In this document: one piece after another, positions 1 through 64,000 of the stretch
Layout of the letters: each line of letters opens with the position of its first letter
Numbering within the stretch: the first letter of the stretch is position 1
DNA from: an uncultured Gemmatimonadaceae bacterium
Lineage (GTDB): Bacteria; Gemmatimonadota; Gemmatimonadetes; Gemmatimonadales; Gemmatimonadaceae
NCBI GenBank assembly: GCA_963829055.1
Contig: CAWHHI010000006.1
Location: 352,001 to 416,000 of the forward strand
Reading direction: 5' to 3'
DNA: 64,000 nt
The notes under the pieces: generated by a model
Databases searched by the model: none
The model's input: only the letters and a program-made list of their open reading frames with translations
Told to the model about the DNA's origin: nothing
Translations under genes and position numbers: made by a program

Positions 1-1218
1 CGGCACGAACCCGGCGAGCAATCCGACGACGAACGCGAGCGCGAGGACCAGCAGGACCGTTTGCCAGTCGAGGCCGATCTCATCGCCACGCGGCAGCAGC
101 TCGAGGTGCAACGCAGTCAGCGACCGCAGCATCCACCATCCGGCCATCGTGCCCAGCAGTCCGCCGGTGAGCGTGAGCAGCGTCGTCTCGGTGAGCAGTT
201 GGCGCGCCAGCCGTGGGAGCTCCGCGCCTAACGCATGACGCGTCGCCAGCTCGCGTGCCCGACCCGCGGACCGAACCAGCGTGAGATTTGCGAGGTTCAC
301 GCCACCGACGAGCAGCACGAGCATGACGCCGCCCCACAGCAGGTACAGCGTCGGGCGCACGTCGCGAATGACGGCGTCCTGCAGGCGGACGACCGTCGTG
401 TGGAACCCCGCATCGCGAAGCAGCTTGGCCATCGCCGGCAGCCGTTGATCCGTGCGCGCGTTGAGATCGTTGATCTGCCGCTGCGCCTGCTCGATCGTCG
501 CGCCGGGCTTGAGACGCGCGATCATCGACCAGTTGTTATTGTGTCGGTTCGCGTCGAGCGATGCGTCGGGCGTGAACGCGAGCGGGAGCCAGAGGTCGGT
601 GTCGTTCCAGAGGTAGCGGAAGTCGGGTTGCATAACGCCGACGACGCGGTACGGCTTGCCGTTCACGCGAATGTCGCGACCGACTACGGACCGGTCACCC
701 CCGTACTCCCGCTGCCAGAACCCGTACGACAGCACGACCTTCGCATCCTGATCCGGCTTCTCATCCTCCGAGAGGAAGAGCCGTCCCACGTCGGCACGTG
801 CGCCGAGGAGCCGGAAGAAGGAAGGCGTCACGCTGAGCGCCGCGACACGTTGCGCGCCGTCGTTCGAGCCGAGTGTCGGATTGCGGCGGACGTAAAGCGC
901 CTGCTCCGAGAAGACGGTCGTCTCGCGCAGCCGGTCGACGTAGTCGGGAACCGAGGTCGCGGTCTCGCCCGGCCCGGCCTTCGTGAAGCCGGCCTTCGGA
1001 TACAGGTTCGCGAACAGGACTATGCGATCCGGGTTCTCGAACGGCAGCGGCTTGAGCACGACTGACCGCACGATGCTGAAGATCGCGGTGTTCGCCCCCA
1101 GGCACACAATGAGCGTGAGCAGGGCGGTGGCCGTGAACGTGCGATCGCGCGAGAGACTGCGAATCGCGACGCGCGCGTCTCGCGCGACGTCGGCAAGCTT
1201 GCTCGTAGCCGAGCCCAT
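1..1218 (-). CDS. ADOP/MacB-like duplicated ABC permease, 3' end runs off the window
   Basis: Manual translation gives MGSATSKLADVARDARVAIRSLSRDRTFTATALLTLIVCLGANTAIFSIVRSVVLKPLPFENPDRIV...ALGAELPRLARQLLTE. GGGAG lies before the ATG at 1218. Confidence 0.85.
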   Translation of the reverse strand, partial: MGSATSKLADVARDARVAIRSLSRDRTFTATALLTLIVCLGANTAIFSIVRSVVLKPLPFENPDRIVLFANLYPKAGFTKAGPGETATSVPDYVDRLRETTVFSEQALYVRRNPTLGSNDGAQRVAALSVTPSFFRLLGARADVGRLFLSEDEKPDQDAKVVLSYGFWQREYGGDRSVVGRDIRVNGKPYRVVGVMQPDFRYLWNDTDLWLPLAFTPDASLDANRHNNNWSMIARLKPGATIEQAQRQINDLNARTDQRLPAMAKLLRDAGFHTTVVRLQDAVIRDVRPTLYLLWGGVMLVLLVGGVNLANLTLVRSAGRARELATRHALGAELPRLARQLLTETTLLTLTGGLLGTMAGWWMLRSLTALHLELLPRGDEIGLDWQTVLLVLALAFVVGLLAGFVP

Positions 1219-1720
1219 TGGATCTCCCGTCATACGCCCAATGTCACACGCCCGAAAGGGCCGTGCCGGACGGTGCAGGTCAGTCACCGCCCGGTCAAGT
1301 CGATACGTCCCGACTACGGCGCCGGTTTCCGCCTCCGGTTACCTCGAGCATGTCGTCCCCATGCTGGCACGTACGAACAGTAGTGCGAGCGCGACGCCGT
1401 CGCATCACCCGAGACGAGCTCGGCGATCGCCGATCGCACCGTCAGTCGAGGCTCTCGTGTCATGGCCAGTCACTCAGCGCTCAGCCGTCAGCAAGAGGTC
1501 GTGGTTTCAGGTATCAGGGTGACGTCGCCCTTCGAGACACGCCTGACGCCTGAAACCTCATCCGTAAGAGGTAGGCGGTGACCGCACTTCCTGACACCTG
1601 GCCAGTAGCTGAGCCACGGCCGCCGTGCGGCATGACCCATCGCCCACATTCACCCGTCTACCCAACACTGGTCGCGCTACCGCCATCCTTAATACAGGAG
1701 TGGTGGCGGTGTGCATTGAC

Positions 1721-1756
1721 GACCAGCTACCAGCACGAGCGACCAGCCACCAGCTC
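1721..1756 (+). repeat. CCAGCnA heptamer-based repeat (related copies at ~16531, ~29178 reverse, ~62352)
   Basis: GACCAGCTACCAGCACGAGCGACCAGCCACCAGCTC is nearly identical to the reverse complement of 29178-29215. Confidence 0.7.
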
Positions 1757-1795
1757 AGTCCTCAACTCAAACGGTTAAATCACTTGCCAGCCCCC

Positions 1796-2542
1796 ATGCG
1801 AACAGCCAATCCCGCGCTCAAGGAAGGCACGTTCACCGGTATTCGTGCGGCAGCCGGCGAGGCCGCCATGACATTGCAGGGCACGGCGACCAAGTCGATG
1901 CTGCTGCTCCTCCTGACCGTGTTCGCGGCGAGCTTCACGTGGCGCGCGGTCGCGTCAGGCAACGTGACGATCCTCATGCCGGCCGCGCTCATCGGCGGGC
2001 TCGGCGGATTCATCGTCGCGATGATCACGATCTTCAAGCCGAACGTCTCGCCCTACACGGCGCCGATTTACGCGGTGCTCGAGGGGCTGCTTCTCGGCGC
2101 GATCTCGTCGCTCTACAACGCGCGATGGGCGGGTCTGCCGTTGCAGGCCGTTGGACTCACGTTCGGCGTCTTCATGGCCATGCTGATCGTGTACCGCCTC
2201 GGCCTCGTTCGCGCGACGGAGAAGTTCCGACTCGGCGTCGTCGCGGCGACGGGCGGCATCGCGATCATGTACCTCCTGAGCTTCGTCCTCGGATTCTTCG
2301 GCGTGCAGATGAACTTCCTGCGCGACTCGAGCCCGCTGTCGATCGGCATCAGCGTCGTCATCGTCGTCGTCGCGGCGCTCAACCTCGTGCTCGACTTCGA
2401 TTTCATCGAGCGTGGCGTTTCCTATCGCGCACCGAAATACATGGAGTGGTACGGCGCGTTCGGTCTGCTCGTGACGCTCGTGTGGCTCTATCTCGAGATC
2501 CTGCGCCTGCTCTCGAAGCTGCAGGGCCGCGGTCGTAGCTGA
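1796..2542 (+). CDS. Bax inhibitor-1/YccA family membrane protein
   Basis: MRTANPAL start, about 7 TM segments, LVLDFDFIE...APKYMEWYGAFGLLVTLVWLYLEILRLL motif. Confidence 0.9.
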   Translation: MRTANPALKEGTFTGIRAAAGEAAMTLQGTATKSMLLLLLTVFAASFTWRAVASGNVTILMPAALIGGLGGFIVAMITIFKPNVSPYTAPIYAVLEGLLLGAISSLYNARWAGLPLQAVGLTFGVFMAMLIVYRLGLVRATEKFRLGVVAATGGIAIMYLLSFVLGFFGVQMNFLRDSSPLSIGISVVIVVVAALNLVLDFDFIERGVSYRAPKYMEWYGAFGLLVTLVWLYLEILRLLSKLQGRGRS

Positions 2543-2558
2543 GGACTGCTTCGGCACG

Positions 2559-2966: not shown

Positions 2967-4621
2967 CTACATTCGCGGGAAGCTGTCGATCGGCGAAGGG
3001 CGCACCCATGGCCGGCAGCCGGGCCGCGGATTGGTCGGCATTGGCTGGACTGGGAACGCATCAGCGCTCGCGGACTCGAGGCGAACCGGATCGCTGAGAT
3101 CGAAGAGGTCCAGCGTCACGCCTCCAGCGATGGATGGTAAGGACAACGAGTCGCGCTTCACCCCGATGGTCGACAGGTATCCCCGCAGCGCCAGGCGCGC
3201 GGTTCGGAACGCGGGAGTGGCGGAGGTCAGGACCCAGAGCCGAGCTGTGCCTCGATAGCGGTCCACGTCACGGACGAACGCGCGCGTGTCGTTCCGGTCG
3301 CACGCCGCCGTGGTCCAGTCACTCGGCTGCAGCCCGTAACGCGGTCCGTAGAACAACATGCCGATGCGCGAGAGGGGGAACACGTACACGACGTCACCCG
3401 GCCGGCGGTTCTTCTGCAGGTAGGCGAGGACGGCTCGATGATGCTCCAGCTCGTACGGGGGAAGGGGATCCACGATCGCGATGGCAGGAGCCACGAGCAG
3501 CGCCGCCATTGCCGCACCACCTAACGCTGGGTGAAGGCGCGACGACGCTACGGCGTACCAGCTCCGTGCCGGCCGCGATGGCGAGCAGCACGATCGGGAC
3601 CAGATACAGCATGAGGCGCCCGCGGAACGGATACTGGTGCGCGAGTGCCGCCGCGATCGCCGCCACCAGTGGCCCGAAAAGCAGCAGGGCGACATCACGA
3701 CGCGACCGCCACACGGCCACGAAACCGATCACCATTGCGACGGTGAACACGACCGGCCAACCGGTAGTGCAGCAGAGTCAGGTCGGTGAACAGAGAGAGG
3801 GTCTGGTTCCAGAACCACCGCACCGTCGAGAGTCCAAGCGGGAACGGCACGAAGCCTCCCCGCCAGAAATCATCCATGAACTCGCGTGTCGTGGGCGTCA
3901 TGCTGCGAAGCCCCGCAATGATCGCGACTGCCGATGCCGCAGCCCAGAGCGGGATCGTGATGAGGAGTGCTCGGCCCGTTGGCCGATCGCGTGACAGCAG
4001 CCACTGCAGGGCGAGCGCGACGCCGATGCCGCCCATGACGAGCACGGAGGCCTGCGAGAACCAGATGATCACGAACCCGATGGCGCCGATGAGCACGAGC
4101 CGACGAGTGGAGACGTTAGGCCGACGCAGGTCGAGCGCGAGGACCAGGAGCAGAACAGTCGCGGTCACGTCCACCGAGTACTGCTTCACCTCCGCGCCGT
4201 ACTTGATGAACGGTACTCCGATCGCGAACAGCGCCAGTGCGAAAGGCGCCGCCAGGCCGTCGAGCGTTCGCTCGGCGAGTCGTCGGAAGAGGAACACGCC
4301 GGCGACGCCGCAGAGGAAGGGGAACAGTCGCAGCGCGAGCTCGTTGCCGCCCAGCACGTCGACCGCCGCTTTCTCGATGAGCAGGAATCCGCGCGGCGCG
4401 ACCTGGTCGAGCTTGAGCGGCTGCGTCACCAGCTCCGTACTCGTTAGGCCGAGTATGTTGCGGGAGAGCAGGATCTCGTCGAGGGAGAGGGTGGGGTTGC
4501 CGGCCCACGCCCACACGCGTAACGCGACACCGAGAATCACCAGGGCCGTAGCGAACCGCGCGCTCCGTAGCGCGTCCTCGATACGGGGTTGGTCTCGCGA
4601 TGCGGCCGCCGATTCCGTCAT
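2967..4621 (-). CDS. Polytopic GT-C/PMT-like (GT39-like) membrane glycosyltransferase, about 2 apparent frameshifts
   Basis: SLDE, ELALRLFPFLCG and AEVKQYS motifs. Pieced together from ORFs 3695-4816, 3394-3750 and 2967-3698. ATGA overlap with the sulfatase stop. Confidence 0.7.
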
Positions 4622-6183
4622 TTGCCGCGCAGCATTGCGACCGTGCCGTCCACACCGTCGGGAAGCTGGTCGTTCGCGAGTTGGTCGTCGTCTCGGACGG
4701 CGCGTTTCAGTCGCATGAGCTCCGCCTTGAGGGTGGCCGTGAGCTGCTCCTGGCCAGGCTGCCCATAGATGTTGTTCATCTCGAGCGGATCGTTCACGAG
4801 GTCGTACAGCTCCCACTGATCCTTCTTCCAGAAGTAGATCAGCTTGTGCGTCTTCGTCCGGACGCCGTAGTGCGCGCGCGTGTTGTGATCGCCCGGGTCG
4901 TGGTAGTAGCGGTAGTACATGGACGTTCGCCAGTCCGTCGGCGTTCGGCCACGCAGGATTGGCAGCATGCTGCGTCCCTGCATCTCGTTAGGTACCGGTA
5001 GCCCGGCAGCCTCGAGAAACGTCGGCGCGAAATCAACGTTGAGTCCCATCGCAGCGCTGCGCGAGCCAGCCTTGATCGCCGCGGGCCAGCGGATGACGAA
5101 CGGCATACGCAGCGACTCCTCGTACATGAAGCGCTTGTCGAACAGCCCATGGTCGCCGAGAAAAAAGCCCTGGTCGCTGGTGTAGATGACGATGGTGTTC
5201 CGGGCGAGACCGTTCCGGTCGAGATAGTCGAGCACGCGGCCGACGTTGTCGTCCACCGATTGTACCGTCGCGAGGTAGTCCTGCATGTATCGCTGGTACT
5301 TCCAGCGGGCGAGCGCTTCGCCCGTGAGCGTGACGGTCGTTCCGCCCCGCGTGGTCGTCACCGTATCGGGCTTCGTCATCAGCCATTTCGTGAGGCTATC
5401 GCCCGCCAGGCCAGTCGGCGGAACGAGCTTGAGATCGCGTCGCGTCATGTCTTTCGCGACGCGCTGCTCGTTTTCGTGCAGTGCGTCCGTTCGCGTCACG
5501 TACGAATCCCAGAGCGTCGACGGCTCCGGAATCCACCGGTCCACGAACGGCGCGCGATGCGCCTGGTCCGGTTCCCACGGCCAATGCGGCGCCTTGTTGT
5601 GCATCATCAGGAAGAACGGCTTGTTGCGCGGCCGCGCCTTCAGGAAGTCGAGCGCGAGGTCGGCGATGAGATCGGTGGCGTAGCGCCCCGTATACGTCGA
5701 CTCGCCTGTGGCTGTGTACATGATCGGATCCATGTACGCGCCCTGCCCGGGGAAGATCTCCCAGTGGTCGAAGCCGACCGGATCGCTGCCGAGGTGCCAC
5801 TTGCCGATCATGCCCGTGTAGTAGCCGCCCCGCTGCAGCAACTGCGCGACCGTCAGGCGCGAGCTGTCGAAGCGGTTGAACATCGTGACGCCATTCACGT
5901 GCGAGTACTGCCCCGTGAGGATCGTCGCGCGACTCGGCGTGCAGATGGAGTTCGTGGCGAACACGTTCTCCATGAGCATGCCTTCTCGCGCGATCCGATC
6001 GATGTTCGGCGTCCGGTTCACCCGTGACCCGTATGCGCTGATCGCGTGCGCAGCGTGGTCATCAGACATGATGAACACGATGTTCGGCCGCTCGGCCAGC
6101 TCGCGACTGTCGGTGCGGTGGTCGCTCGGCGCCGGCGCCGATCCCGTCGTCGAAAGGAGCAGGACTGCGATGAATGGGCGCAT
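4618..6183 (-). CDS. Secreted sulfatase (GlcNAc-6-sulfatase-like)
   Basis: Signal peptide, SDDH, CTPSR formylglycine motif, GKWH and YTSDQG. Confidence 0.92.
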   Translation of the reverse strand: MRPFIAVLLLSTTGSAPAPSDHRTDSRELAERPNIVFIMSDDHAAHAISAYGSRVNRTPNIDRIAREGMLMENVFATNSICTPSRATILTGQYSHVNGVTMFNRFDSSRLTVAQLLQRGGYYTGMIGKWHLGSDPVGFDHWEIFPGQGAYMDPIMYTATGESTYTGRYATDLIADLALDFLKARPRNKPFFLMMHNKAPHWPWEPDQAHRAPFVDRWIPEPSTLWDSYVTRTDALHENEQRVAKDMTRRDLKLVPPTGLAGDSLTKWLMTKPDTVTTTRGGTTVTLTGEALARWKYQRYMQDYLATVQSVDDNVGRVLDYLDRNGLARNTIVIYTSDQGFFLGDHGLFDKRFMYEESLRMPFVIRWPAAIKAGSRSAAMGLNVDFAPTFLEAAGLPVPNEMQGRSMLPILRGRTPTDWRTSMYYRYYHDPGDHNTRAHYGVRTKTHKLIYFWKKDQWELYDLVNDPLEMNNIYGQPGQEQLTATLKAELMRLKRAVRDDDQLANDQLPDGVDGTVAMLRGK

Positions 6184-6450
6184 AGCGGATTATGGCGCAT
6201 CGAGGCGCAACCGCCAGCCCGGCGTGTATCGGGCGGATGAAGACAAGACAGGGGATTGGCGGGATCGGGCAGGAATCGTGGCCCGACGCGCCTAACGACT
6301 GACAGCCCCGATCCGCGTGGTGAATGTGTGGGACCCCCATTGTGGCGGCCGCTTGACGCTCGTCGCCCGGTGGTGCATGGTAGCGCGCCGGCGGAGCCCT
6401 CACGGCTACCGCACACCCCAAACGCGCTCCTTCCAGTGGAGGTCGCGAGC

Positions 6451-7062: not shown

Positions 7063-9547
7063 ATGGCCACGACGACGACCCCCGCCTCCGGCGATCAACC
7101 CTCGGCCAGTGCCGGCGCAAATGGCGGTGCAGCAGACAGCATCGAACGGCCGTTCGGAGCCCGCATCCGCCGCAAGGAGGATCCGCGGTTCCTCACCGGG
7201 CGCGGCCAGTACACCGATGACGTGCGAATACCGGGGACGCTGCACGCGGCGTTCGTCCGGAGCCCGCACGCGCACGCGCGCATTCGCGCGATCGACCTGG
7301 ACGCCGCGCGAACGTACCCCGGCGTAGTAGCCGTCTACACCGGAAAGGACCTCGCCGAGGGCGGTGTGAACGGCATTCCCACGGGATGGCTCCTGCCGCA
7401 ACTCAAGCCGAGCAACCACCACGCGATTGCCGTCGAGAAGGTGCACTACACCGGCGAGGCGGTCGCCGTGATTGTCGCGGAGTCGCCGTACGCCGCCCGC
7501 GATGCCGCCGAGCTGGTAGTGGTGGACTACGAGCCGCTTCCGGCGGTGGCCGACGCCGAACAGGCGCTGGCAGCGGACGCATCGATCGTGCGCAGTGATG
7601 GAACCGACAACGTCTGCTTTCGCTGGCAGATCGGGGACGCGGCCGCGACCGACGCGGCGTTCTCGCAGGCGTCGACCGTCGTTAGGCAGCGGCTGGTGAA
7701 CCAGCGGCTCATCCCGGTCGCCATCGAGCCCCGCGCTTCGCTCGCCACGTACACGCGGGCGACCGACGAGCTGACGCTGTGGGTGACATCGCAGAACCCG
7801 CACGTCCACCGCCTGATCATGGGCGCGTTCGTGCTCGGACTTCCCGAGCACAAGTTCCGCGTCATCTCGCCGGACGTCGGCGGCGGCTTCGGGTCGAAGA
7901 TCTTCATCTACGCCGAGGAAGTCGCGGTCGCCTGGATCGCGCGAACGCTCGAGCGCCCCGTGAGGTGGACGGCCGAGCGACGCGAGAGCTTCATGACCGA
8001 CTCGCACGGCCGCGACCACATCACCGACGCGGAGATGGCGTTCGACGCGAACGGCCGCATCGTCGGCCTGCGCGTGCGTACGATCGCGAACCTCGGTGCC
8101 CACCTCACGCTCTTCGCCCCGGCGATCCCCACGTACCTGTACGGCACGCTCCTCTCCGGCCAGTACCGCATTCCGGCGATCCACGCCGAGGTGACCGGCG
8201 TGTTCACGCACACCACACCGGTGGATGCCTACCGCGGTGCCGGCCGCCCGGAGGCATGCTACCTCCTGGAGCGCATGGTGGACCTGGGCGCCCGACAGCT
8301 CGGCGTTGACCCGGCCGAGCTTCGCCGCCGGAACTTCATCCCGGCCCGACCAGTTCCCCTACCTGACGCCAGTCGCGCTCCAGTACGACAGCGGCAACTA
8401 CGAGCCGGCGCTCGACCGCGCGCTGGCGATGGCGGACTACACGAACTTTCGCGTGGAGCAGCAGCGGCTGCGCCAGCAGGGACGTTTCGTCGGCGTCGGA
8501 CTCTCGAGCTACATCGAGGCCTGCGGCCTCGCGCCGTCGCAGGTGGTCGGCCAGCTCGGCGCGCAGGCGGGACTCTACGAGAGTGCCAGCGTGCGTGTCT
8601 ACCCGACGGGGAAAGTCAGCGTCTACACCGGTTCGCAGCAGCAGGGGCAGGGGCACGAGACCACGTTCGCGCAGATCGTCGCCGATCGCCTTGGCATCTC
8701 CACCGACGACGTCGACGTCGTACATGGTGACACCGGACGCGTGCAGTTTGGGATGGGCACCTACGGCAGCCGCAGCGCGTCGGTAGGCGGGTCCGCGATC
8801 GTCGTGAGCCTCGACAAGATCGTGGAGAAGAGCAAGCGCATCGCGGCACACATGCTCGAGGCGGCGCCCGAAGACATCGAGCTCACGGCGGGCCGCTTCC
8901 ACGTCCGTGGCTTTCCGGACCGGTCGAAGGGACTGGCCGACATCAGCCTGGCTGCCTATCTCGCTCACAGCATGCCCGCGGGAATGGAGCCGGGTCTCGA
9001 GGCGATGAGCTTCTTCGACCCGCCGAACTTCACGTACCCATTCGGGACGCACATCGCGATGGTGGAGGTGGATGCCGACACCGGGCACGTCACGCTGCTG
9101 CGCTACATCGCGGTGGACGACGTCGGCAACGTCATCAATCCGATGATCGTGGACGGCCAACTGCACGGCGGGATCGCACAGGGCGTCGCGCAGGCGCTCT
9201 GGGAAAGCGCCGAGTACGATGACAGCGCGCAGTTGCTCACTGGCTCGCTCATGAACTACGGCCTCCCGAAAGCGAATCAGTTGCCGTTCTTCGAGCTCGA
9301 TCGCACGGTCACGCCGTCACCCGTGAACCCGCTTGGCGTCAAGGGCGTGGGTGAGGCGGGCGCGATTGCGTCACCACCAGCCGTTGTGAACGCGGTGATG
9401 GACGCGCTGAGCCCGTTCGGCATCGCGCACCTCGACATGCCGCTGACGGCGCCGAAGGTGTGGCAGGCCATGCAGGCGGCGCGCGCGAATGGAAGCGCGA
9501 GTGGAAATGCAGGCGGCGGTACCACGACGGCGACTACGGGGAGGTGA
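7063..9547 (+). CDS. coxL: Molybdopterin-binding large subunit, form II CoxL-like (frameshift near 8345)
   Basis: DVGGGFGSK, AYRGAGRPEA and GVKGVGE motifs. ORFs 7063-8730 and 8225-9547 join at NFIP/DQFPY. Confidence 0.88.
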
Positions 9548-9554: not shown

Positions 9555-10427
9555 ATGTATCCGGCACCCTTCGAGTATCATCGCGCGACCAGTGTGGACG
9601 ACGCGCTCGCGCTCCTCGCGGCGTATGGGGATGACGGCAAGCTGATCGCCGGGGGGCACAGCCTGCTCCCGGTGATGAAGCTGCGCTTCTCCCAGCCCGC
9701 GCACCTCATCGACATCCGTCGTGTACCCGAGCTCGCGGGGATTCGGGAGCAGGACGGCACGCTCCGCATTGGCGCGACGACGACGCACGCCGCCGTCGCC
9801 GCATCAGACGTGATCCGGCGCCGAGTGCCAGTGCTCGCGGAGGCGGCGTCGCGCATCGGGGACACACAGGTCCGGAACATGGGCACGATCGGCGGGAGCC
9901 TCGCTCATGCCGACCCCGCCGCTGACCTGCCGGCCGTGACGCTCGCGTTAGGCGCGGAGCTGCACACCGTCGGGCGCAATGGCCCGCGCGCGATTCCGAT
10001 CGACGACTTCTTCACCGGCATGTTCTCATCCGCGCTCGCGCCGGATGAGGTGCTCGTCGACGTGCGCGTCCCGTTCCCGGTGGCAGACACCGGTGGCGCG
10101 TACGAGAAGTATCCGGACCCGGCCTCAGGATACGCGCTCGTCGGCGTGGCGGCTGTGGTGACGCTCGGCGCCGGTGGCGTCGTACAGCGCGCGCGCGTGG
10201 CCATGACCGGATTCGCATCGTCCGCGGTCCGGCTCACCGGAGTGGAGGCGACGCTGACGGGAAAGGCAGCATCGCCCGACCAGATCGAGGGCGCGGCGCG
10301 GCGAGCCGTCGAGGGGCTGGAACTGCGCGATGCGACCGGAGGCGGCGCGGCATTCAAGGCCAACCTCGCGGCTGTCTACACGCGGCGCGCGCTGACCCGC
10401 GCCGTCGCCCGCGCGCGCCGCCCGTGA
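9555..10427 (+). CDS. coxM: FAD-binding medium subunit
   Basis: MYPAPFEY start, AGGHSLLP and QVRNMGTIGGSLAHADPAAD motifs. Confidence 0.9.
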   Translation: MYPAPFEYHRATSVDDALALLAAYGDDGKLIAGGHSLLPVMKLRFSQPAHLIDIRRVPELAGIREQDGTLRIGATTTHAAVAASDVIRRRVPVLAEAASRIGDTQVRNMGTIGGSLAHADPAADLPAVTLALGAELHTVGRNGPRAIPIDDFFTGMFSSALAPDEVLVDVRVPFPVADTGGAYEKYPDPASGYALVGVAAVVTLGAGGVVQRARVAMTGFASSAVRLTGVEATLTGKAASPDQIEGAARRAVEGLELRDATGGGAAFKANLAAVYTRRALTRAVARARRP

Positions 10428-22252: not shown

Positions 22253-22257
22253 CGTCG

Positions 22258-50602: not shown

Positions 50603-50614
50603 GTCTCTCTCCGC

Positions 50615-51594
<980 letters not shown>

Positions 51595-52336: not shown

Positions 52337-52340
52337 CGAC

Positions 52341-55234: not shown

Positions 55235-58024
55235 CTACGTCTCCTCCCGCAGCGCCTCCGTCGGCTCGATGCGGAACGCGCGACGCGTCGGCACGACGCA
55301 CGCGACGAGACACACCACCATCATCAGCATCGCGTACGCCACCACCAGCGCGACTTCCCTCGGCGACAGCGCGCCCGTCGCCGCCCTCGTCAGCACGCCG
55401 ACGAACCCGCCTCCCACCAACACGCCAAGCGCCACCTGCCTGAGCGGTCGCCGGAAGATCGCGGTGATCACGCGCCGGTGATCCGCGCCGAGCGCGATGC
55501 GCACGCCGATCTCGCGCGTCCGACGCGAGACCGTGAATGACATCACCGCGTAGATCCCCGCGAGTGACAGCACGAGCGCGACACAGCTTACCAGTAGCAC
55601 CAGCCGGAACCAGAAGCTCAGGAACTCGAGCTCGGAGTCGAGCACGCGATCGAGCGGCGCTATGTCGTACAACCGGAGCGTCGGGTCGACCGCCGTCGCG
55701 AGCGCGCGGAGGCGCGGCGCAAACGCCGACGGATCGCCCTTCACATGCACCGCCATGTGCGCCGGGTAGATCCCGCCTGCCGCCACCGGATGGTAGATCC
55801 CCGAGCTCTTCGGGTCGCCGCCCTCCGCCTGGCCGACGTCCGCACCAACCGCCATCCCCACGTCGCGCACGACGCCGACGATCTCGTACCACGGCCCTGG
55901 CTTCCGGTCCACCGACCACCGGTCGTCCTCGCCATCCACGTACCGCAAGCGACGGCCGATCGGATTGCGATCACCGAACACGCGCCGCACGAACGACTGG
56001 TTCACGACGACGACGCCACCGCGAGCGCCCGGCTTCCCCGGCGTTCCGAGATCCGCCTCGCCGTCACTCGCGTTGAAGCCTCGACCAATGATGACGGGTG
56101 CCGAGACTGCCTCGAGAAAGTCGTGATCGACCGACGCGGAGCTCACGCGATACCCGTTAGGCCAGCGCGGGTCGCGCGGCGCCGCCGCACCCTCATCGAC
56201 TTCGATGATGTGGTACGGGTGGTACATCAGCGGAAGAAGGTCGGCGAACGTGATGCCCGCGACCGCGGGCTCGGCGGCGACGCGCCGAGCAAGCTCCTGA
56301 TACGTCGCGCGGAAGTGGGCACGGTGTGCCGCCCGTGATGTGTCCGCACGCGCGCCCGGCACGGGTTCGCGATCCATCTCGAGCCGAACCGACAGGAATT
56401 CCCTGAACGGGAATCCGACGTCGACCTGCTCGAGCTGCACCGCGTCGCGTCGCACGAAGAACGCGACCGCCGGAAACGCCACGGTCACCGCGACCTGCGC
56501 GACGATGACGACCGTCCACACACCGCCGAATCGCAATCCGCCGCTGCCGGCCGTCGTCTGCTTGAGCCGGGCGCCGACGCCACGCGTCACCTTGAGCGCG
56601 GGGACGACGCCAGCGATCGCCGCGGCGACGAAGGTCAGCAGCACTGCATACACGTACGTGGTCGGCGACAGCGTATCCTGAAACCAGAACGGTAACCGGG
56701 CTCCGTGAAGGAACTCCGCCTCGATGACGCCCATCACCCAGCGCAGGCCAGCGCCGGACGCCGCGAGCCCGATCACCGCCGCCACTCCACCGAGCACGAG
56801 CGCCTCGGCGAACAGCTGCATGATGATCCGGCCACGCCCGGCGCCTAACGCCGAGCGGACGACGATCTCGCTCTCGCGCGTTGCCGCACGCGCGAACATG
56901 AGCAGCGCGACGTTGCCGCAGATGAGCACGAGCAGCATGAGCAGCGGCAAGTTGACCGACATGACGCCGACCGATCGCCATCCTCTGACGTCCACAATGG
57001 ACTGAGCGTACGGCATGATCTGCGGACGCAGGTACTCGTGCGTGTCGCGGAAGTCCGCGGACGCGCGCTTGCCGAGCGCACTGAGCTCGGCCTGCGCTTC
57101 GTCGAGCGACACACCGGGCGCGAGACGCGCGAACACACTGATCGCTGGGCCCTCTCGGCGGCCGTATCCAGCGTCATCGAGGCGGAGCGGCACCCAGAAG
57201 CTCTGCGCGACCGGGAAGCCGAACTTCTCGGGCATGACGCCGACGATCGTCACCACCGAGCTCGCGAGCCGCACCGTCCGACCGATGATTGCGGTGTCGG
57301 CGCCGAAGCGACGCTGCCACGCGTCGTACCCGATCACGACTACTGGCGTTGCGTCCGCACGCTCATCCGATTCGATCAGCGTCCGCCCCAGGAATGGAGG
57401 CACGCGCGTCATCCGGAACGCGGACGCGGTGATCTCCGCCACCTCGACGGGCTCGCCGCGACCTTCGCTCGTGATCAGGTTGCGCTCGAGCGCGCGGTAT
57501 GCGCCGAGGTCCGTCACCGACTTCAGCGTCTGTCGCCATGTGGCGAAGTCGTCGGCGATGTGCGCCTCGGGCCGGCTCGCTGCCAGATCCCAGTTGCGGA
57601 TGGCGACGATGCGATTGCCGTCAGGCAGCGGGATCGTCGGCCGAATGATCTGCGTCGCCATCTCGAACGTCGCCGAGCCGACCCAGATCGCGAACGCCAT
57701 CGCGAGCCCGCCCACAATCGTTAGGCCCGGGTACCTGACGAGCATCCGGAAGCCGAGCTTGAAGTCCAGCCACGACACGCGGAGGTCATCGATGCGCCGT
57801 AGTCCTCGCGACCGGCGCCCTTGCTCCTTGAAGTGTTCGGTGCTACCGAACTCGAGCCGCGCCTGACGCTCGGCCTGTGCCGGCGTTAGGCCGGAGCGGA
57901 CGAGGTCCGCGGCCCTGAGCTCCAGGTGCAGTCGGAACTCGTCGTTCATGTCCGACTCGACGTCCACGCGCTGACGCACACCTCGCCAGAGCGAGCGGGT
58001 GCGCGCGATAAGTCCTGAGAGCAT
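55235..58024 (-). CDS. ADOP/MacB-like ABC permease
   Basis: DEFRLHLE, LDFKLGFRML, ESEIVVRSALGA and REIGVRIALGA motifs. Confidence 0.92.
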   Translation of the reverse strand: MLSGLIARTRSLWRGVRQRVDVESDMNDEFRLHLELRAADLVRSGLTPAQAERQARLEFGSTEHFKEQGRRSRGLRRIDDLRVSWLDFKLGFRMLVRYPGLTIVGGLAMAFAIWVGSATFEMATQIIRPTIPLPDGNRIVAIRNWDLAASRPEAHIADDFATWRQTLKSVTDLGAYRALERNLITSEGRGEPVEVAEITASAFRMTRVPPFLGRTLIESDERADATPVVVIGYDAWQRRFGADTAIIGRTVRLASSVVTIVGVMPEKFGFPVAQSFWVPLRLDDAGYGRREGPAISVFARLAPGVSLDEAQAELSALGKRASADFRDTHEYLRPQIMPYAQSIVDVRGWRSVGVMSVNLPLLMLLVLICGNVALLMFARAATRESEIVVRSALGAGRGRIIMQLFAEALVLGGVAAVIGLAASGAGLRWVMGVIEAEFLHGARLPFWFQDTLSPTTYVYAVLLTFVAAAIAGVVPALKVTRGVGARLKQTTAGSGGLRFGGVWTVVIVAQVAVTVAFPAVAFFVRRDAVQLEQVDVGFPFREFLSVRLEMDREPVPGARADTSRAAHRAHFRATYQELARRVAAEPAVAGITFADLLPLMYHPYHIIEVDEGAAAPRDPRWPNGYRVSSASVDHDFLEAVSAPVIIGRGFNASDGEADLGTPGKPGARGGVVVVNQSFVRRVFGDRNPIGRRLRYVDGEDDRWSVDRKPGPWYEIVGVVRDVGMAVGADVGQAEGGDPKSSGIYHPVAAGGIYPAHMAVHVKGDPSAFAPRLRALATAVDPTLRLYDIAPLDRVLDSELEFLSFWFRLVLLVSCVALVLSLAGIYAVMSFTVSRRTREIGVRIALGADHRRVITAIFRRPLRQVALGVLVGGGFVGVLTRAATGALSPREVALVVAYAMLMMVVCLVACVVPTRRAFRIEPTEALREET

Positions 58025-58604: not shown

Positions 58605-58823
58605 CAACGGGGTTCTGGCAGGTTGCGGCCTGAGGCTGGGGCCAATCTAGAACCCGGGAAACCCCGTGACCAGCCATTGTGCGCCGCTCCGAGTCGTTAG
58701 CCGTGCCTAACGAATCGTGTCTTCGAGGGCCGGAGCGCCAGGCGCCCCATGTCGAGGTTGACCTTATCACGCACGCGGACGGATATTGGCTCCACCATTG
58801 GGTCCCCGCGGAGAGGCGACGAC

Positions 58824-62212: not shown

Positions 62213-62250
62213 GACACACCTTCATGAAGTAATGAGTTGTATCATGATAC
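62206..62250. promoter_or_regulatory. Putative vapBC autoregulatory operators
   Basis: GTGTCATGACAC, CTTCATGAAG and GTATCATGATAC palindromes. Confidence 0.65.
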
Positions 62251-62297
62251 CTAGGGCACCCGGTGGTGGCAACAGCCCCGGGAGCGGTATCGACGTA

Positions 62298-62341
62298 CAA
62301 GGGGCCAGAGTCGTTGAACGTTCAACGACTCTGGCCCCTTG
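62298..62341. repeat. Perfect 44-bp palindrome related to 61326-61364
   Basis: CAAGGGGCCAGAGTCGTTGAAC|GTTCAACGACTCTGGCCCCTTG. Confidence 0.85.
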
Positions 62342-62405
62342 AATCCTCCTGCACTCAGCGTCACCCAGCCACCAGCACGACCACCCAGCAACCAGCTTCT
62401 CGCAG

Positions 62406-64000
62406 TTACTGGATCGGTCCGCCCTTCTGCATCTGCGGCACGCCGTCGGTCATCCACTTCGGCGCCGGCTTGTCCTTGAGGTAGTGATCGAAGAACTGCT
62501 TCATGCGCACCTGGAAGTCCTTCTGGTTCTCCTTCTTCGCCAGGTGATGCGGCTCGTCCGGGTACGACAGGAAGATCACCTGCTTCCCGCTGCGCCGCGC
62601 GGCGTTGAAGAACTCGAGCCCCTGCTCCCAGTCCACCGCGTCGTCCGCCGTGCCCTGCAGGATCATGAACGGCGTCTTGATGTTGCGCACGTGATGCACC
62701 GGCGACTGGCTCTCGTACAGCTCGTGTGAGTTCCACGGCGTCACGTTCGCGCCCATGCGCACCTGACCGACCTCGATGATGCCCTGCTGCAGCGTGCCCG
62801 TCTGCTTGTACAGCTCGTCGTAGAAGCTCACGAGATTCGTCGGCGGCGCGCCCGTCACGACCGCCGCGAACATGTCCGTCTGCGTGAGGATGAACGACGA
62901 CTGGTATCCGCCCCAGCTGTGTCCCTGCAGTCCGATGTGCTTCGGATCGGCGTAGCCCAGCTCGATCACCTTCTTCACCGCGCTCGTCACGCAGTCGAGC
63001 GCCGAGCTGCCCGGCTTGCCGATCTCGTAGACGATGTCCGGCTGGAGCACGAGGTAGCCGTTGCTCGCGTACGTCGACATGTGCGGCCGGTCGTCGTACA
63101 CCGGCATCGAGAACGTGTGATGCGTGTTCGACATGATCTCGTAGAAGTACACGAGCATCGGATACTTCTTGCCGGGCTGATAGTCCGCCGGCAGCGTCAG
63201 CGTGCCCTGCAGCTTCTGGCCTTTGCTGTTCTTGTAGTCGACGAGCACCTTGCTGCCCCACGCGTATTCGGCAGATCAGCGGATTCGCGTCGGTGATCTT
63301 GCGTCGGCGACGCGAACGCGGCGTTGCTCGTCCAGTAGTCCGGGAATTCCGAGAACGTCTGCTCGGTGAAGATCACGCGATCGGCCTTCTCGGCCTTCGC
63401 CACCTGGCCGATCTGCTTGTCCGCGTAGATGAGCGGCGTCGGCGCCTTGCCGGCGACGACCTTGTAGTAGCCGGACTTCTTCGTCCAGTCGCCGTAGGCC
63501 GAGAGCGTGAGCGGCTTCGTGAGGTCGATGCCTTCGTCGTCCTGCGCGGCGCCACCACCGAAGATGCCGCCGCCACCGCCGCCACCCGGCCTCGCGCCGG
63601 ACGATCGAGCCTAACGAGACGGAACCGGATCTTGCCGGATCTCCCATGCCCCGCGTCAGATTGACGGCCTTGCCGCCGTCGAGCGGCATCTGCCAGATGT
63701 CGAAATGATGGTTCAGCAGCACCGACTTGCCGTCCTTCGACCACCCCGCCACGCCGTACGTCGGAATCTCGTACGGATGATCATCCTCGGCGTCCAGGAA
63801 GCTGATCTTGTCGCCGTCGTCGAGATCCTTCTTCTGCCGGTCTCGAGGTTGTACGCGACGACGTTCTTGTCCTTGAGATACAGGAACCACTTGCCGTCGG
63901 GCGAGATGCCCATCGTGCGCGTCACCGACTTCTCGATGAGCGTGCGCTCGCCGGTCTCGGTGTTGATGCGATAGTGATCGGCCTTGCTGCCGCCCCATGA
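62406..64000 (-). CDS. S9 family prolyl oligopeptidase, 5' end off the window, apparent frameshifts
   Basis: GHSWGG nucleophile, QGTADDAV and EPHH motifs; beta-propeller fragments upstream. Confidence 0.9.

What the first reader, a model, noticed from the sequence alone, without database searches (positions are those of the whole stretch)
226..63616. Highly iterated non-palindromic motif (G)CCTAACG, about 1 per kb and in all six codon phases: candidate undescribed DNA-signal system
Seen: a manual scan finds about 60 exact CCTAACG/CGTTAGG copies (about 26 forward, 34 reverse, interspersed), and about 50 extend to GCCTAACG. Examples: 226, 4114, 4442, 6290, 7680, 9946, 17533, 17693, 18361, 28263, 28590, 29740, 29759, 42213, 53005, 53603, 54065, 54290, 54824, 57719, 57884, 63609. 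A zero-order estimate at an assumed ~68% GC gives only about 7 per 64 kb. Roughly three quarters of the CTAA/TTAG tetramers I found lie inside this motif. It sits in unrelated genes in every phase: GCG-TTA-GGC (Ala-Leu-Gly, 17533), GTT-AGG (Val-Arg, 7680), CCT-AAC (Pro-Asn, 17693), CTA-ACG (Leu-Thr, 18361), and stop codons CGT-TAG (14053, 50613) and GCC-TAA (40935, 52331). It therefore imposes codons otherwise avoided here, so selection or mutation acts on the DNA, not the protein. Known analogues are Neisseria DUS and Pasteurellaceae USS uptake signals (similar density, no strand bias), cyanobacterial HIP1, and Chi/KOPS (strand-biased, unlike this). GTTAGGC also fits the integron core GTTRRRY. 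Inference: a lineage-specific uptake, recombination/repair, nucleoid-protein or methylation site. I know of no description of it.
Basis: partly seen in the sequence, partly recalled or inferred. Interest (0 to 1): 0.92.

Follow-up and report, generated by a model that had tools for sequence, protein, structure and literature searches.

The report
Hyper-abundant GCCTAACG word in Gemmatimonadaceae
One eight-letter DNA word is written about 5,000 times through this soil bacterium's genome, against its own codon habits and evenly spaced, much like the self-recognition tags that Neisseria and Haemophilus use when they take up DNA, but what reads the word is still unknown.

Summary
The window holds 60 CCTAACG (26 +, 34 -), against 3.4 expected, and 50 extend to GCCTAACG. 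The whole 7.78-Mb genome holds 5,004 copies, and this is its strongest 8-mer outlier. Shuffling synonymous codons within genes gives 125 copies against 2,947 seen in predicted genes.

The word sits in all four non-stop frames and supplies 32% of TAA stops. It has no conserved flanks and no strand skew. It is spaced more evenly than chance. It is kept at orthologous places within a genus but not between genera. It is missing from foreign-looking DNA.

The genome belongs to Gemmatimonadaceae. In that family, 24 of 151 genomes have over 1,000 copies and 89 have fewer than 60. None of 92 genomes from other families of the phylum is enriched.

Tests argue against Chi, Vsr-type repair, m6A/m4C methylation and integron integrase as the cause. 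The closest analogue is a DUS/USS-type uptake signal. The reader protein was not found. The word equals the attC core of this family's integrons.

The parts
226..233 (+). GCCTAACG; inside predicted gene ..1233(-), read there as GCG-TTA-GGC
3520..3526 (+). CCTAACG (7-mer only); no predicted gene
4114..4121 (-). GCCTAACG; gene 3695-4621(-), CCT-AAC frame
4442..4449 (-). GCCTAACG; gene 3695-4621(-), CTA-ACG frame
4986..4992 (-). CCTAACG (7-mer); sulfatase gene 4618-6183(-), CCT-AAC
6290..6297 (+). GCCTAACG; no predicted gene
7680..7687 (-). GCCTAACG; no gene in my calls
9946..9953 (-). GCCTAACG; gene 9555-10427(+), GCG-TTA-GGC
10444..10451 (+). GCCTAACG; no predicted gene
13562..13568 (-). CCTAACG (7-mer); gene 12613-14058(+), TCG-TTA-GGT
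14053..14060 (-). GCCTAACG; supplies the TAG stop (CGT-TAG) of gene 12613-14058(+)
14115..14121 (-). CCTAACG (7-mer); no predicted gene
14975..14982 (-). GCCTAACG; no predicted gene
15159..15166 (+). GCCTAACG; gene 15030-15698(-), ACG-TTA-GGC
17533..17540 (-). GCCTAACG; MacB/FtsX permease gene 16968-19565(+), GCG-TTA-GGC
17693..17700 (+). GCCTAACG; same gene, CCT-AAC
18361..18368 (+). GCCTAACG; same gene, CTA-ACG
19062..19068 (+). CCTAACG (7-mer); same gene, CCT-AAC
19393..19400 (-). GCCTAACG; same gene, GCG-TTA-GGC
22256..22263 (-). GCCTAACG; supplies the TAA stop (GCC-TAA) of ORF 22258-23874(-)
23160..23167 (+). GCCTAACG; gene 22258-23874(-), GTT-AGG
23450..23456 (+). CCTAACG (7-mer); gene 22258-23874(-), TCG-TTA-GGT
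25515..25521 (-). CCTAACG (7-mer); no predicted gene
27399..27406 (+). GCCTAACG; Ser/Thr kinase gene 26685-29141(-), ACG-TTA-GGC; kept in 4 of 4 same-genus orthologous stretches aligned
28263..28270 (+). GCCTAACG; same kinase gene, ACG-TTA-GGC
28590..28597 (+). GCCTAACG; same kinase gene, TCG-TTA-GGC
29740..29746 (-). CCTAACG (7-mer); GMC oxidoreductase gene 29423-31114(-), CCT-AAC
29759..29766 (-). GCCTAACG; same gene, CTA-ACG
32221..32227 (-). CCTAACG (7-mer); M20 peptidase gene 31925-33400(-), CCT-AAC
32552..32558 (-). CCTAACG (7-mer); same gene, CTA-ACG
33441..33448 (+). GCCTAACG; last codons of gene 33438-33983(-): GCG-TTA-GGC-TGA
33984..33991 (+). GCCTAACG; just upstream of the start of gene 33438-33983(-)
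35514..35521 (-). GCCTAACG; FG-GAP gene 34771-36132(-), CCT-AAC
35748..35755 (-). GCCTAACG; same gene, CCT-AAC
36275..36282 (+). GCCTAACG; supplies the TAG stop of predicted gene 36277-36660(-)
37400..37407 (-). GCCTAACG; no predicted gene
38699..38706 (+). GCCTAACG; gene 38243-38758(-), TCG-TTA-GGC
39162..39169 (-). GCCTAACG; no predicted gene
40935..40942 (+). GCCTAACG; supplies the TAA stop (GCC-TAA) of gene 40602-40940(+)
41641..41648 (+). GCCTAACG; no predicted gene
42213..42220 (-). GCCTAACG; no predicted gene
43492..43499 (-). GCCTAACG; gene 42770-43672(+), GTT-AGG
44197..44204 (+). GCCTAACG; gene 43913-44548(-), GTT-AGG
44553..44560 (+). GCCTAACG; amidohydrolase gene 44508-45674(-), GCG-TTA-GGC
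48219..48226 (-). GCCTAACG; gene 47233-48420(-), CCT-AAC
49252..49259 (-). GCCTAACG; amidohydrolase gene 48494-49753(-), CCT-AAC
49755..49762 (-). GCCTAACG; just upstream of the start of gene 48494-49753(-)
50613..50620 (+). GCCTAACG; supplies the TAG stop of aldo/keto reductase gene 50615-51538(-)
52331..52338 (+). GCCTAACG; supplies the TAA stop of gene 51998-52336(+)
53005..53012 (-). GCCTAACG; no predicted gene
53603..53610 (-). GCCTAACG; MacB/FtsX gene 53404-55089(+), GCG-TTA-GGC
54065..54072 (-). GCCTAACG; same gene, CCG-TTA-GGC
54290..54297 (-). GCCTAACG; same gene, GCG-TTA-GGC
54824..54831 (-). GCCTAACG; same gene, GCG-TTA-GGC
56155..56162 (-). GCCTAACG; MacB/FtsX gene 55235-58024(-), CCT-AAC
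56843..56850 (+). GCCTAACG; same gene, GCG-TTA-GGC
57719..57726 (-). GCCTAACG; same gene, CTA-ACG
57884..57891 (-). GCCTAACG; same gene, CTA-ACG
58705..58712 (+). GCCTAACG; no predicted gene
63609..63616 (+). GCCTAACG; no predicted gene

Best explanation
GCCTAACG is a lineage-specific 'self' word read as double- or single-stranded DNA by a sequence-specific protein that has not been identified. The most likely role is a DNA-uptake signal of the DUS/USS kind.

The proposed mechanism runs as follows. A surface or periplasmic receptor of the type IV pilus / ComEA / ComEC import route prefers fragments that carry the word. Imported fragments replace their homologues by recombination. Alleles carrying the word are therefore over-transmitted (molecular drive, possibly helped by selection for keeping recombination within the species). 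The word accumulates wherever it costs the proteins least, up to about one copy per kilobase, beyond which a second nearby copy adds nothing.

Shown here:
- The word is imposed on the DNA and not on the proteins.
- It is unskewed and evenly spaced.
- It is conserved within genera and turned over between genera.
- It is absent from foreign-looking DNA.
- It is confined to part of one family.
- The import genes exist.

Inferred, not shown: uptake itself, the uptake bias, and the receptor.
For: Abundance and frames
- There are 5,004 copies, about 0.64 per kb, which is 24-fold above a synonymous-codon shuffle and 38-49-fold above low-order Markov models.
- No flanking conservation beyond position -1 to +8, so it is not a REP or MITE.
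- All four open frames are used: 1,208 NCG-TTA-GGC, 809 CCT-AAC, 543 CTA-ACG and 387 GTT-AGG (n = 2,947 copies in predicted genes).
- 225 of 698 TAA stops and 167 of 1,393 TAG stops lie in the word. It therefore sits where it costs least.

Orientation
- The two orientations are equal (2,457/2,547).
- 1,326 against 1,276 copies relative to the G-rich strand.

Spacing
- 408 neighbour gaps under 200 bp against 975 expected.
- An excess of gaps at 300-1,200 bp.
- 1,021 gaps over 2 kb against 1,220 expected.
- The pattern is the same for all orientation pairs.

Conservation and turnover
- G000 against G004 (74.9% identity, 55 kb aligned): 15 places shared, 19 only in G000, 6 only in G004. Random 8-mers are identical at 14.7% of places.
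- G166 against G066 (82.5% identity): 13 shared, 5 and 3 unique, against 29.6% for random 8-mers.
- Between genera (G000 against G014): 1 shared, 4 and 13 unique, against 9.7%.

Foreign DNA and resident replicons
- Three contig-end stretches of 31-50 kb have 0-1 copy. They carry second, divergent copies of single-copy housekeeping genes.
- All resident replicons of a rich genome are rich. A megaplasmid of Gemmatirosa kalamazoonensis has 36 copies in 50 kb. The 21-kb smallest contig of G057 has 18 copies.

Import genes in G000
- ComEC is present, and was found in 139 of 151 family genomes, including every one of the 24 genomes with over 1,000 copies.
- A pilM-N-O-secretin cluster with three pilin genes is present.
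- There is a weak ComEA-type hit.

Recalled comparison: the only functionally understood words with this statistical profile are the USS of Pasteurellaceae and the DUS of Neisseriaceae.
Against: - No member of this phylum is known to be naturally transformable. I found no such report in the searches.
- The import genes do not discriminate. ComEC, the secretin, ComEA-like genes, the pilins and three T4P-locus proteins occur in word-poor genomes as well. No receptor candidate emerged.
- There is no excess of close inverted pairs of the kind DUS and USS form in terminators. Within 60 bp there are 13 '+-' and 15 '-+' pairs.
- The distribution within the family is patchy even inside genera: g56 has 66 against 3,896 and 4,141 copies, and g47 has 895 against 4,469. 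Word-poor genomes show no alternative word. DUS and USS, by contrast, are shared, with dialects, by whole families.
- A small resident element being as rich as the chromosome fits an intracellular process at least as well as uptake.
Confidence: 0.4

Rival explanations
1. The word is the binding or action site of an intracellular chromosome-maintenance protein, and selection demands a site within about 1 kb of every position. Candidates are a nucleoid-associated or condensing protein, a nicking or strand-discrimination site for repair, or a preferred priming site. It would act on every replicon in the cell.
For: - The even spacing, with a roughly 200-bp exclusion zone and few long gaps, is what a coverage requirement predicts.
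- Orientation does not matter.
- Chromosome, megaplasmid and a 21-kb element are equally rich, as expected of a process inside the cell.
- The word is conserved within genera.
Against: - No known bacterial nucleoid or repair protein uses thousands of exact 8-bp asymmetric sites (recalled).
- Loss of the word in close relatives, with no replacement word, is odd for an essential maintenance function.
- No candidate gene was found.
Confidence: 0.2
2. The word is integron-related. It is the R-box (core site) of the family's integron attC/attI sites, and the genome-wide copies serve or result from a tyrosine recombinase. They could be secondary recombination sites or raw material for new cassettes.
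For: - The word contains GCCTAAC/GTTAGGC. This fits the consensus RYYYAAC/GTTRRRY, which I recall and did not compute.
- Arrays of a roughly 45-nt repeat that begins with the word, spaced 500-650 bp on one strand, lie next to integron-integrase genes in G000:C20, G021:C80 and G019:C26.
- Integron integrases are very common in the family, with 88 of 151 genomes over the curated cut-off.
Against: - Integrase presence does not track abundance. It is present in many word-poor genomes (G007, G008, G009, G011, G012, G016, G068, G124). It was not found in word-rich G004 and G065 (92% and 97% complete).
- Genome-wide copies are not paired as attC sites would be. Inverted neighbours at 30-150 bp number 51 and 49. 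About 148 per orientation class would be expected if a quarter of all uniformly placed pairs fell in each class.
- The copies lie inside ordinary housekeeping genes.
Confidence: 0.08
3. The word is a Chi-like signal that tames a helicase-nuclease, protecting self DNA from degradation and stimulating RecA loading. It would spread because fragments carrying it recombine better.
For: - It is an over-represented 8-mer in core DNA and missing from foreign DNA.
- G000 has two PD-(D/E)XK hits 4 kb apart on contig C15 that could be an AddAB-type pair.
Against: - There is no replication-related skew: 51% on the G-rich strand, n = 2,602.
- RecC was found in only 17 of 151 family genomes. It was not found in G000, G001, G004, G014, G057 or G166.
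- Alpha-type AddB was found in 0 of 5 genomes.
- PD-(D/E)XK nuclease domains were not found in the rich genomes G166, G014 and G123, and only faintly in the 100%-complete G057.
- The density and fold-enrichment exceed those of known Chi sites (recalled).
Confidence: 0.06
4. The word is a by-product of DNA modification or biased repair: the site of a methyltransferase (R-M, BREX, orphan) and/or of a Vsr-type very-short-patch repair that converts near-misses into the word.
For: - HIP1 of cyanobacteria is a highly iterated word tied to orphan methyltransferases (abstract of PMC4390886 seen in the listing).
- CCTAAC has the asymmetric 6-mer shape of BREX and type III sites (recalled).
Against: - The SMRT methylome of Gemmatirosa kalamazoonensis lists only RGATCY, ATGCAC and CCAGN7TCA (whole text read). 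That species carries the word at 0.72 per kb on a megaplasmid.
- Vsr was not found in G000, G057, G166 or G124.
- Orthologous non-word alleles differ at all positions. The commonest is a T/G transversion (GCCGAACG, 8 of 21 one-step alleles), not one transition type.
- One-step variants that differ by C-to-T are no more depleted than other variants at the same positions.
- None of 15 scanned candidates with an amino-methyltransferase motif is a DNA methyltransferase. 26 candidates were found, so 11 were not scanned.
Confidence: 0.05
5. There is no signal at all: the excess comes from base composition, codon or dicodon usage, a repeated protein motif, or an assembly artefact.
For: None found.
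Against: - Dinucleotide shuffles, Markov models of order 0 to 3 and a synonymous-codon shuffle all fall 20-fold or more short.
- Four frames and both coding orientations are used.
- The word is present in dozens of independent assemblies and in a finished isolate genome.
Confidence: 0.01

Closest known systems
DNA uptake sequences: USS of Pasteurellaceae and DUS of Neisseriaceae (together DUES)
   Same: - A short non-palindromic word at about one copy per kb.
- Thousands of copies, tens of times above expectation.
- Both orientations equal, and spaced more evenly than chance.
- Placed in coding DNA where it costs least.
- Shared by relatives and missing from foreign DNA.
- Type IV pilus and ComEC genes present.
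   Different: - Only 8 bp, with no flanking A/T-rich part.
- No inverted pairs at terminators.
- Patchy inside one family and even inside genera, with no dialects in the poor genomes.
- Competence is unknown in the phylum.
- No ComP-like receptor was found.
- The word coincides with the integron attC core.
HIP1 (GCGATCGC) of cyanobacteria
   Same: An 8-bp word at about 1 per kb, in all frames, lineage-specific, with some members of the lineage lacking it. Its function is still debated (abstracts of PMC4390886 and bioRxiv 10.1101/2024.09.10.611283, seen in the listing).
   Different: HIP1 is a palindrome and contains the sites of two orphan methyltransferases. This word is asymmetric and is not among the m6A/m4C motifs of a species that carries it.
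Integron attC/attI core site (R box, GTTRRRY / RYYYAAC)
   Same: The letters are identical. The family's own cassette arrays begin each repeat with GCCTAACG.
   Different: The genome-wide copies are single, unpaired, inside housekeeping genes, far from any integrase gene, and independent of integrase presence.
Chi and KOPS/AIMS (polar octamers)
   Same: An over-represented octamer of the core genome.
   Different: There is no polarity with replication. RecBCD/AddAB was mostly not found in word-rich genomes.

Membership tests
DNA uptake sequence (DUS/USS) | Short asymmetric word, hundreds to thousands of copies, about 1 per kb, far above compositional and codon expectation | tested here: met
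   5,004 copies in 7.78 Mb. Expected 102-297 by Markov models. 125 by codon shuffle against 2,947 observed in genes.
DNA uptake sequence (DUS/USS) | Both orientations about equal, no replichore polarity, spacing more even than random | tested here: met
   2,457/2,547 copies. 51% on the G-rich strand. 408 gaps under 200 bp against 975 expected.
DNA uptake sequence (DUS/USS) | Shared by related species, kept at orthologous places, and lacking in recently acquired DNA | tested here: met
   All 7 genomes of the genus have 2,501-5,112 copies. 15 of 34 G000 places are kept in G004, against 14.7% for random 8-mers. Foreign-looking contig ends have 0-1 copy per 31-50 kb.
DNA uptake sequence (DUS/USS) | The organism is naturally competent and takes up DNA carrying the word preferentially | not testable with these tools
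   This needs uptake or transformation assays. No report of competence in the phylum was found.
DNA uptake sequence (DUS/USS) | A cognate receptor (a minor type IV pilin in Neisseria) that co-occurs with the word | tested here: inconclusive
   Six pilin-like genes and a T4P cluster exist. The two pilin queries (L165, L168) hit all 5 panel genomes, rich and poor alike. The three T4P-locus proteins hit 3 or more of the 7 word-poor genomes on the 16-genome panel.
DNA uptake sequence (DUS/USS) | Frequent close inverted pairs acting as terminators (typical, not strictly defining) | tested here: not met
   13 and 15 inverted neighbour pairs within 60 bp, with no excess.
Chi (RecBCD/AddAB hotspot) | A RecBCD- or AddAB-type helicase-nuclease in the genome that reads it | tested here: not met
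   RecC was found in 17 of 151 genomes and not in G000, G014, G057 or G166. Alpha-type AddB: 0 of 5. PD-(D/E)XK domain: 3 of 6 genomes, and not in G166, G014 or G123. G000 is only 86% complete and has a possible fragmented pair on contig C15.
Chi / KOPS / AIMS | Orientation skewed with the direction of replication | tested here: not met
   1,326 against 1,276 copies relative to the G-rich strand. Across the skew switch on C16 the counts are 111/158 and 209/187.
Integron attC site | Sequence fits RYYYAAC ... GTTRRRY | tested here: met
   GCCTAAC / GTTAGGC by inspection. The consensus is recalled. The family's cassette arrays use the word.
Integron attC site | Inverted R''/R' pair 50-150 bp apart, in same-strand arrays next to intI | tested here: not met
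   This is true only for the one array at G000:C20:200.7-208 kb. Genome-wide inverted pairs at 30-150 bp are fewer than chance.
Integron attC site | Abundance depends on an integron integrase | tested here: not met
   The integrase is over the cut-off in 88 of 151 genomes, in word-poor and word-rich ones alike.
HIP1-like methylation-linked word | Palindromic and overlapping the site of a cognate methyltransferase | tested here: not met
   Not a palindrome. Not among the three SMRT motifs of Gemmatirosa kalamazoonensis, which carries the word. 5mC was not tested.
Very-short-patch repair by-product | Vsr endonuclease present and near-miss variants of one transition type depleted | tested here: not met
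   Vsr was found in 1 of 5 genomes, only in word-poor G068. No transition-specific pattern.
REP / MITE / other dispersed repeat | Conserved sequence or hairpin extending beyond the core | tested here: not met
   The flank profile is flat beyond positions -2 to +8 apart from codon periodicity.

The most novel reading that the evidence does not exclude
The word is an uptake or self-recognition signal whose letters were taken over from, or are shared with, the recombination core of the family's integrons. Every gene cassette circulating in Gemmatimonadales would then carry the 'address label' for import into the word-rich lineages. This would couple natural transformation to integron cassette exchange. 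It would also give a cultured model (Gemmatirosa kalamazoonensis) for a third, phylogenetically remote uptake-signal system.
Probability: 0.08. Interest if true: 0.9.

Novelty: new variant of a known kind. Interest (0 to 1): 0.72.

Why it matters
Only two bacterial families are known to mark their own DNA with an uptake word. How such words arise, spread and are read is still argued.

This is a third candidate. It lies in a phylum with no known competence. Its density runs from nil to 1.25 per kb among close relatives, and there are sharp contrasts inside genera.

A cultured, finished-genome strain carries the word, so uptake, pull-down and deletion tests are feasible.

The identity with the integron core site raises a testable link between transformation and cassette traffic.

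There is also a practical use. Absence of the word flags foreign or mis-joined stretches in metagenome-assembled genomes of this family.

Tried and rejected
- **Replichore polarity in other genera.** The tables listed only '+' hits for G123, G065 and G090. Fetching the DNA showed equal orientations. The listing puts forward hits first, so this was a display artefact.
- **Dialects.** 100-kb samples of four word-poor genomes (G068, G008, G075, G100) have no other iterated 7- or 8-mer. Their top z is 7-14, against 38-79 for the word in rich genomes.
- **Integron integrase as driver.** Rejected.
- **Receptor hunt.**
  - Pilins L165 and L168 hit all 5 panel genomes, rich and poor. The C-terminal part of L168 has no homologue in any of the 5.
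  - The T4P-locus protein of 383 aa hit 13 of 16 panel genomes, including poor G124, G075 and G049.
  - The protein of 306 aa hit 16 of 16.
  - The protein of 119 aa hit 10 of 16, that is 7 of 9 rich and 3 of 7 poor.
  - None discriminates.
- **Import genes.** ComEC, the secretin and ComEA-like genes occur in rich and poor genomes alike.
- **Methyltransferase screen.** A motif screen found 26 candidates. 15 were scanned and none is a DNA methyltransferase. The screen covered only my predicted genes, about 66% of the genome.
- **Binding centre.** I looked for local clusters of the word that might mark one. The maximum is 5 copies in 600 bp.
- **Literature by sequence string.** Only primers and unrelated hits.
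- **Accessions.** Searches did not find the accession form asked for.

Full report
**The observation**

The window holds 60 exact CCTAACG/CGTTAGG, 26 on the + strand and 34 on the - strand. 100 dinucleotide-preserving shuffles give 3.40 +/- 1.89, at most 8. 50 of the 60 extend to GCCTAACG, against 1.18 +/- 1.26 expected. 60 of the window's 81 CTAA/TTAG tetramers lie inside the word.

The window is G000:C6:352001-416000 of a 7,784,024-bp, 20-contig genome of 66-67% G+C. Genome-wide there are 6,391 copies of the 7-mer and 5,004 of the 8-mer (2,457 forward, 2,547 reverse). 72% of all CTAA/TTAG lie in the word.

GCCTAACG is the strongest outlier at every word length from 6 to 9. Under an order-3 Markov model the expectation is 257 against 5,004 observed, z = 296. 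Simpler models expect 102 to 297.

**Is it a coding or compositional effect?**

No. I called genes with a crude codon-likelihood caller of my own. It found 5,341 genes covering 66% of the genome, so it is incomplete. I then shuffled synonymous codons within each gene. The 8-mer count falls to 124.6 +/- 7.7 (10 replicates, largest 136), against 2,947 observed.

Within genes the word stands in all four frames that do not create a stop (n = 2,947):

| Frame as read on the coding strand | Copies |
|---|---|
| NCG-TTA-GGC | 1,208 |
| CCT-AAC | 809 |
| CTA-ACG | 543 |
| GTT-AGG | 387 |

The two remaining frames are used as real stop codons. 225 of 698 TAA stops and 167 of 1,393 TAG stops of the predicted genes lie in the word. 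In the window this happens at 14053, 22256, 36275, 40935, 50613 and 52331.

Flanks carry no conservation beyond a preference for G at -1 (78%), C/T at -2 and non-A two bases after the word. The rest is codon periodicity. The word is therefore not the core of a longer repeat.

**Anatomy of the distribution**

Orientation is balanced locally and globally. Run lengths of same-strand copies are close to a coin-toss series. On contig C16, which has a G-C skew switch near 550 kb, the counts are 111/158 and 209/187. Over all 100-kb bins with measurable skew, 1,326 copies have CGTTAGGC on the G-rich strand and 1,276 on the other.

Spacing is not random:
- Neighbour gaps under 200 bp number 408 against 975 expected.
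- Gaps of 300-1,200 bp are in excess.
- Gaps over 2 kb are fewer than expected (1,021 against 1,220).
- The pattern is the same for same-strand, convergent and divergent pairs.

The copies therefore repel each other at short range and cover the genome evenly.

One-step variants at the outer positions are themselves enriched: ACCTAACG 827, GCCTAACA 435, CCCTAACG 428. So is GCATAACG, at 583. Variants of the inner CCTAAC are depleted.

**Who has it**

A conserved window protein finds its best relatives in records titled Gemmatimonadaceae, Gemmatimonas or Gemmatimonadales. All 7 genomes of the genus have 2,501-5,112 copies.

In a sample of 151 genomes of the family, my hand count from the table gives:

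| Copies per genome | Genomes (of 151) |
|---|---|
| More than 1,000 (up to 6,360 in a 5.1-Mb genome, G014) | 24 |
| 60 to 1,000 | 38 |
| Fewer than 60 (usually several-fold below the reversed-word control) | 89 |

Contrasts occur inside genera. Genus g56 has 3,896 and 4,141 copies against 66. Genus g47 has 4,469 against 895.

Outside the family, none of 92 genomes from 11 other families of the phylum exceeds its control. One genome of a sister family (G030, 345 against 147) is mildly enriched.

The unpublished genomes G013, G051, G052, G150, G207 and G236 are among those counted in these tallies. No individual claim rests on them.

Per-genus profiles are all (Y)G-CCTAAC-G, with small shifts in which end G is stricter. 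Four word-poor genomes, sampled at 100 kb each, have no other iterated word. The trait is therefore present or absent, not replaced by dialects.

A named, cultured species carries the word. The stretch 100,001-150,000 of Gemmatirosa kalamazoonensis plasmid 1 (NZ_CP007129.1) has 36 copies and 0 of the control.

**Dynamics**

| Comparison | Identity | Aligned columns | Shared places | Only in first | Only in second | Random 8-mers identical |
|---|---|---|---|---|---|---|
| G000 vs G004 (same genus) | 74.9% | 55,365 | 15 | 19 | 6 | 14.7% |
| G000 vs G001 (same genus) | 80.3% | 15,100 | 4 | 4 | 7 | 23.1% |
| G166 vs G066 (both rich, same genus) | 82.5% | 13,431 | 13 | 5 | 3 | 29.6% |
| G000 vs G014 (different genera) | 71.9% | 15,525 | 1 | 4 | 13 | 9.7% |
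| G166 vs G124 (rich vs poor, same genus) | 71.2% | 7,504 | 0 | 8 | 0 | 11.1% |

The flanks of shared copies differ freely. Places are not shared between genera.

At the 8 places where rich G166 has the word, its poor congener G124 differs at 2-5 of the 8 positions. There are no decayed remnants.

Where one genome has the word and its orthologue does not, 21 of 52 ungapped alleles differ at one position:

| One-step allele | Count (of 21) |
|---|---|
| GCCGAACG | 8 |
| ACCTAACG | 6 |
| GCCCAACG | 3 |
| GCCTGACG | 2 |
| GCCTAACC | 1 |
| CCCTAACG | 1 |

These rows are not independent, because several relatives are compared with the same G000 places. The word is therefore reached from whatever common G+C-rich neighbour is at hand, including by transversions. 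It is not made by one kind of repair event.

**Foreign DNA**

The only long word-free stretches are three contig ends: C6:5,440-55,038, C6:591,808-623,330 and C11:1-44,055. They have higher G+C (66-73%) and 0-1 copy.

They encode ordinary housekeeping genes. These genes are second, divergent copies. FtsK, DAHP synthase, FolD and leucyl aminopeptidase are 47-59% identical to the copies on C16.

They are either mis-joined DNA of another organism or large acquisitions. The genome is rated 3.95% contaminated and 85.9% complete. Either way, non-native DNA lacks the word.

By contrast, the smallest contig of the rich genome G057 (20,952 bp) has 18 copies.

**The integron connection**

In word-poor genomes of a sister family, the few copies cluster in same-strand arrays spaced 500-650 bp. 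Each copy begins a conserved repeat of about 45 nt. Such arrays abut integron-integrase genes in G021:C80 and G019:C26.

G000 has its own array. An integrase scoring 265.7 bits (cut-off 265) lies at C20:208,041-208,958 (-). Six to eight such repeats lie downstream of it, at 200.7-207.2 kb.

The word is thus the inverse-core/core box of the order's attC sites. The consensus RYYYAAC/GTTRRRY is recalled, not computed.

Integron integrases are over the curated cut-off in 88 of 151 family genomes. They occur in word-poor and word-rich genomes alike, and were not found in rich G004 and G065. The genome-wide copies are unpaired. The integrase is therefore not what multiplies the word. Whether the identity of letters is chance or meaningful stays open.

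**Tests of other mechanisms**

*Chi-type*
- No skew.
- RecC was found in 17 of 151 genomes, mostly poor ones. It was not found in G000, G001, G004, G014, G057 (100% complete) or G166.
- Alpha-type AddB was found in 0 of 5 genomes.
- The PD-(D/E)XK nuclease domain was found in 3 of 6 genomes. It was not found in rich G166, G014 and G123. G000 has two hits on C15.

*Vsr-type repair*
- Vsr was found in 1 of 5 genomes, only in poor G068.

*Methylation*
- The genome announcement of G. kalamazoonensis (PMC3974934, whole text read) reports three m6A motifs, RGATCY, ATGCAC and CCAGN7TCA, each over 99% modified, and nothing resembling the word.
- 5mC is not excluded by that method.
- A motif screen of my predicted G000 proteins gave 26 candidates. 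The 15 that I scanned are not DNA methyltransferases.

**Tests of the uptake reading**

The parts for DNA import exist:
- ComEC is at C16:789,233-790,018. It was found in 139 of 151 family genomes, including all 24 with over 1,000 copies. The 12 genomes without a hit have at most 308 copies, and four of them are under 80% complete.
- A pilM-pilN-pilO-secretin cluster is present with two PilA-type pilins and a minor-pilin-like gene.
- Three further pilin-like genes are present.
- There is a weak ComEA-type hit.

None of these discriminates rich from poor genomes.

**Verdict**

A real, strong, lineage-specific DNA-level signal is present. In density, balance of orientation, even spacing, placement at least cost, conservation among close relatives and absence from foreign DNA, it behaves like the uptake words of Pasteurellaceae and Neisseriaceae. 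I hold that reading at about 0.4.

An intracellular maintenance site comes next, at 0.2. It is favoured by the even spacing and by the richness of every resident replicon. Integron-related, Chi-like and methylation or repair readings are each below 0.1 after the tests above.

I found no description in print:
- searched the sequence strings;
- searched Gemmatimonadetes + integron + attC;
- searched the phylum name with uptake-sequence and iterated-word terms;
- searched the methylome paper and its citers.

Only search listings and abstracts were seen for all papers except PMC3974934.

Earlier notes of this scan on six other Gemmatimonadaceae genomes describe the same word and the same reading. 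They are not independent evidence.

- the spacing statistics;
- the family- and phylum-wide map with within-genus contrasts;
- the absence of dialects;
- the negative tests for integrase, RecBCD/AddAB, Vsr, m6A/m4C methylation and pilus-locus proteins;
- the foreign contig ends.

Noticed in passing
G000:C20:200,700-208,958 (outside the window; locus L200): A chromosomal integron. An integron-integrase gene (265.7 bits, cut-off 265) lies on the - strand. Six to eight attC-like repeats lie downstream of its 3' end, so the integrase is transcribed towards the cassettes. The same layout is seen in G021:C80.
   Followed up: partly
Family-wide: Integron integrases are unusually common in Gemmatimonadaceae. 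88 of 151 genomes sampled are over the curated cut-off, and several have 2-5 copies.
   Followed up: partly
G000:C6:5,440-55,038; C6:591,808-623,330; C11:1-44,055: Word-free contig ends of higher G+C. They carry second, 47-59% identical copies of single-copy housekeeping genes (FtsK, DAHP synthase, FolD, PepA). They are probably chimeric joins or large acquisitions. Absence of the word could serve as a quality check for bins of this family.
   Followed up: partly
G000 genome-wide: Among the rare neighbour pairs closer than 30 bp, same-strand pairs dominate (31 against 7 inverted). Some overlap as CGTTAGGCGTTAGGC. This suggests short tandem duplication or slippage of the word.
   Followed up: no
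window 16968-19565, 45818-47065, 53404-55089, 55235-58024: Four MacB/FtsX-type permease genes lie within 64 kb, three of them of the long duplicated kind. More occur elsewhere in the genome.
   Followed up: no
Family-wide: RecC was found in only 17 of 151 genomes. PD-(D/E)XK AddAB/RecB-type nucleases were not found in several nearly complete genomes. Double-strand-break processing in much of this family may rely on another route.
   Followed up: partly
Predicted genes of G000: Several housekeeping genes appear truncated in my calls (for example chorismate synthase and aminopeptidase M17). The cause is either my crude caller or frameshifts in the assembly.
   Followed up: no
Genome search output: For genomes with many pattern matches, the listed places are forward-strand hits first. 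This mimics a strong strand polarity that the DNA does not have.
   Followed up: yes
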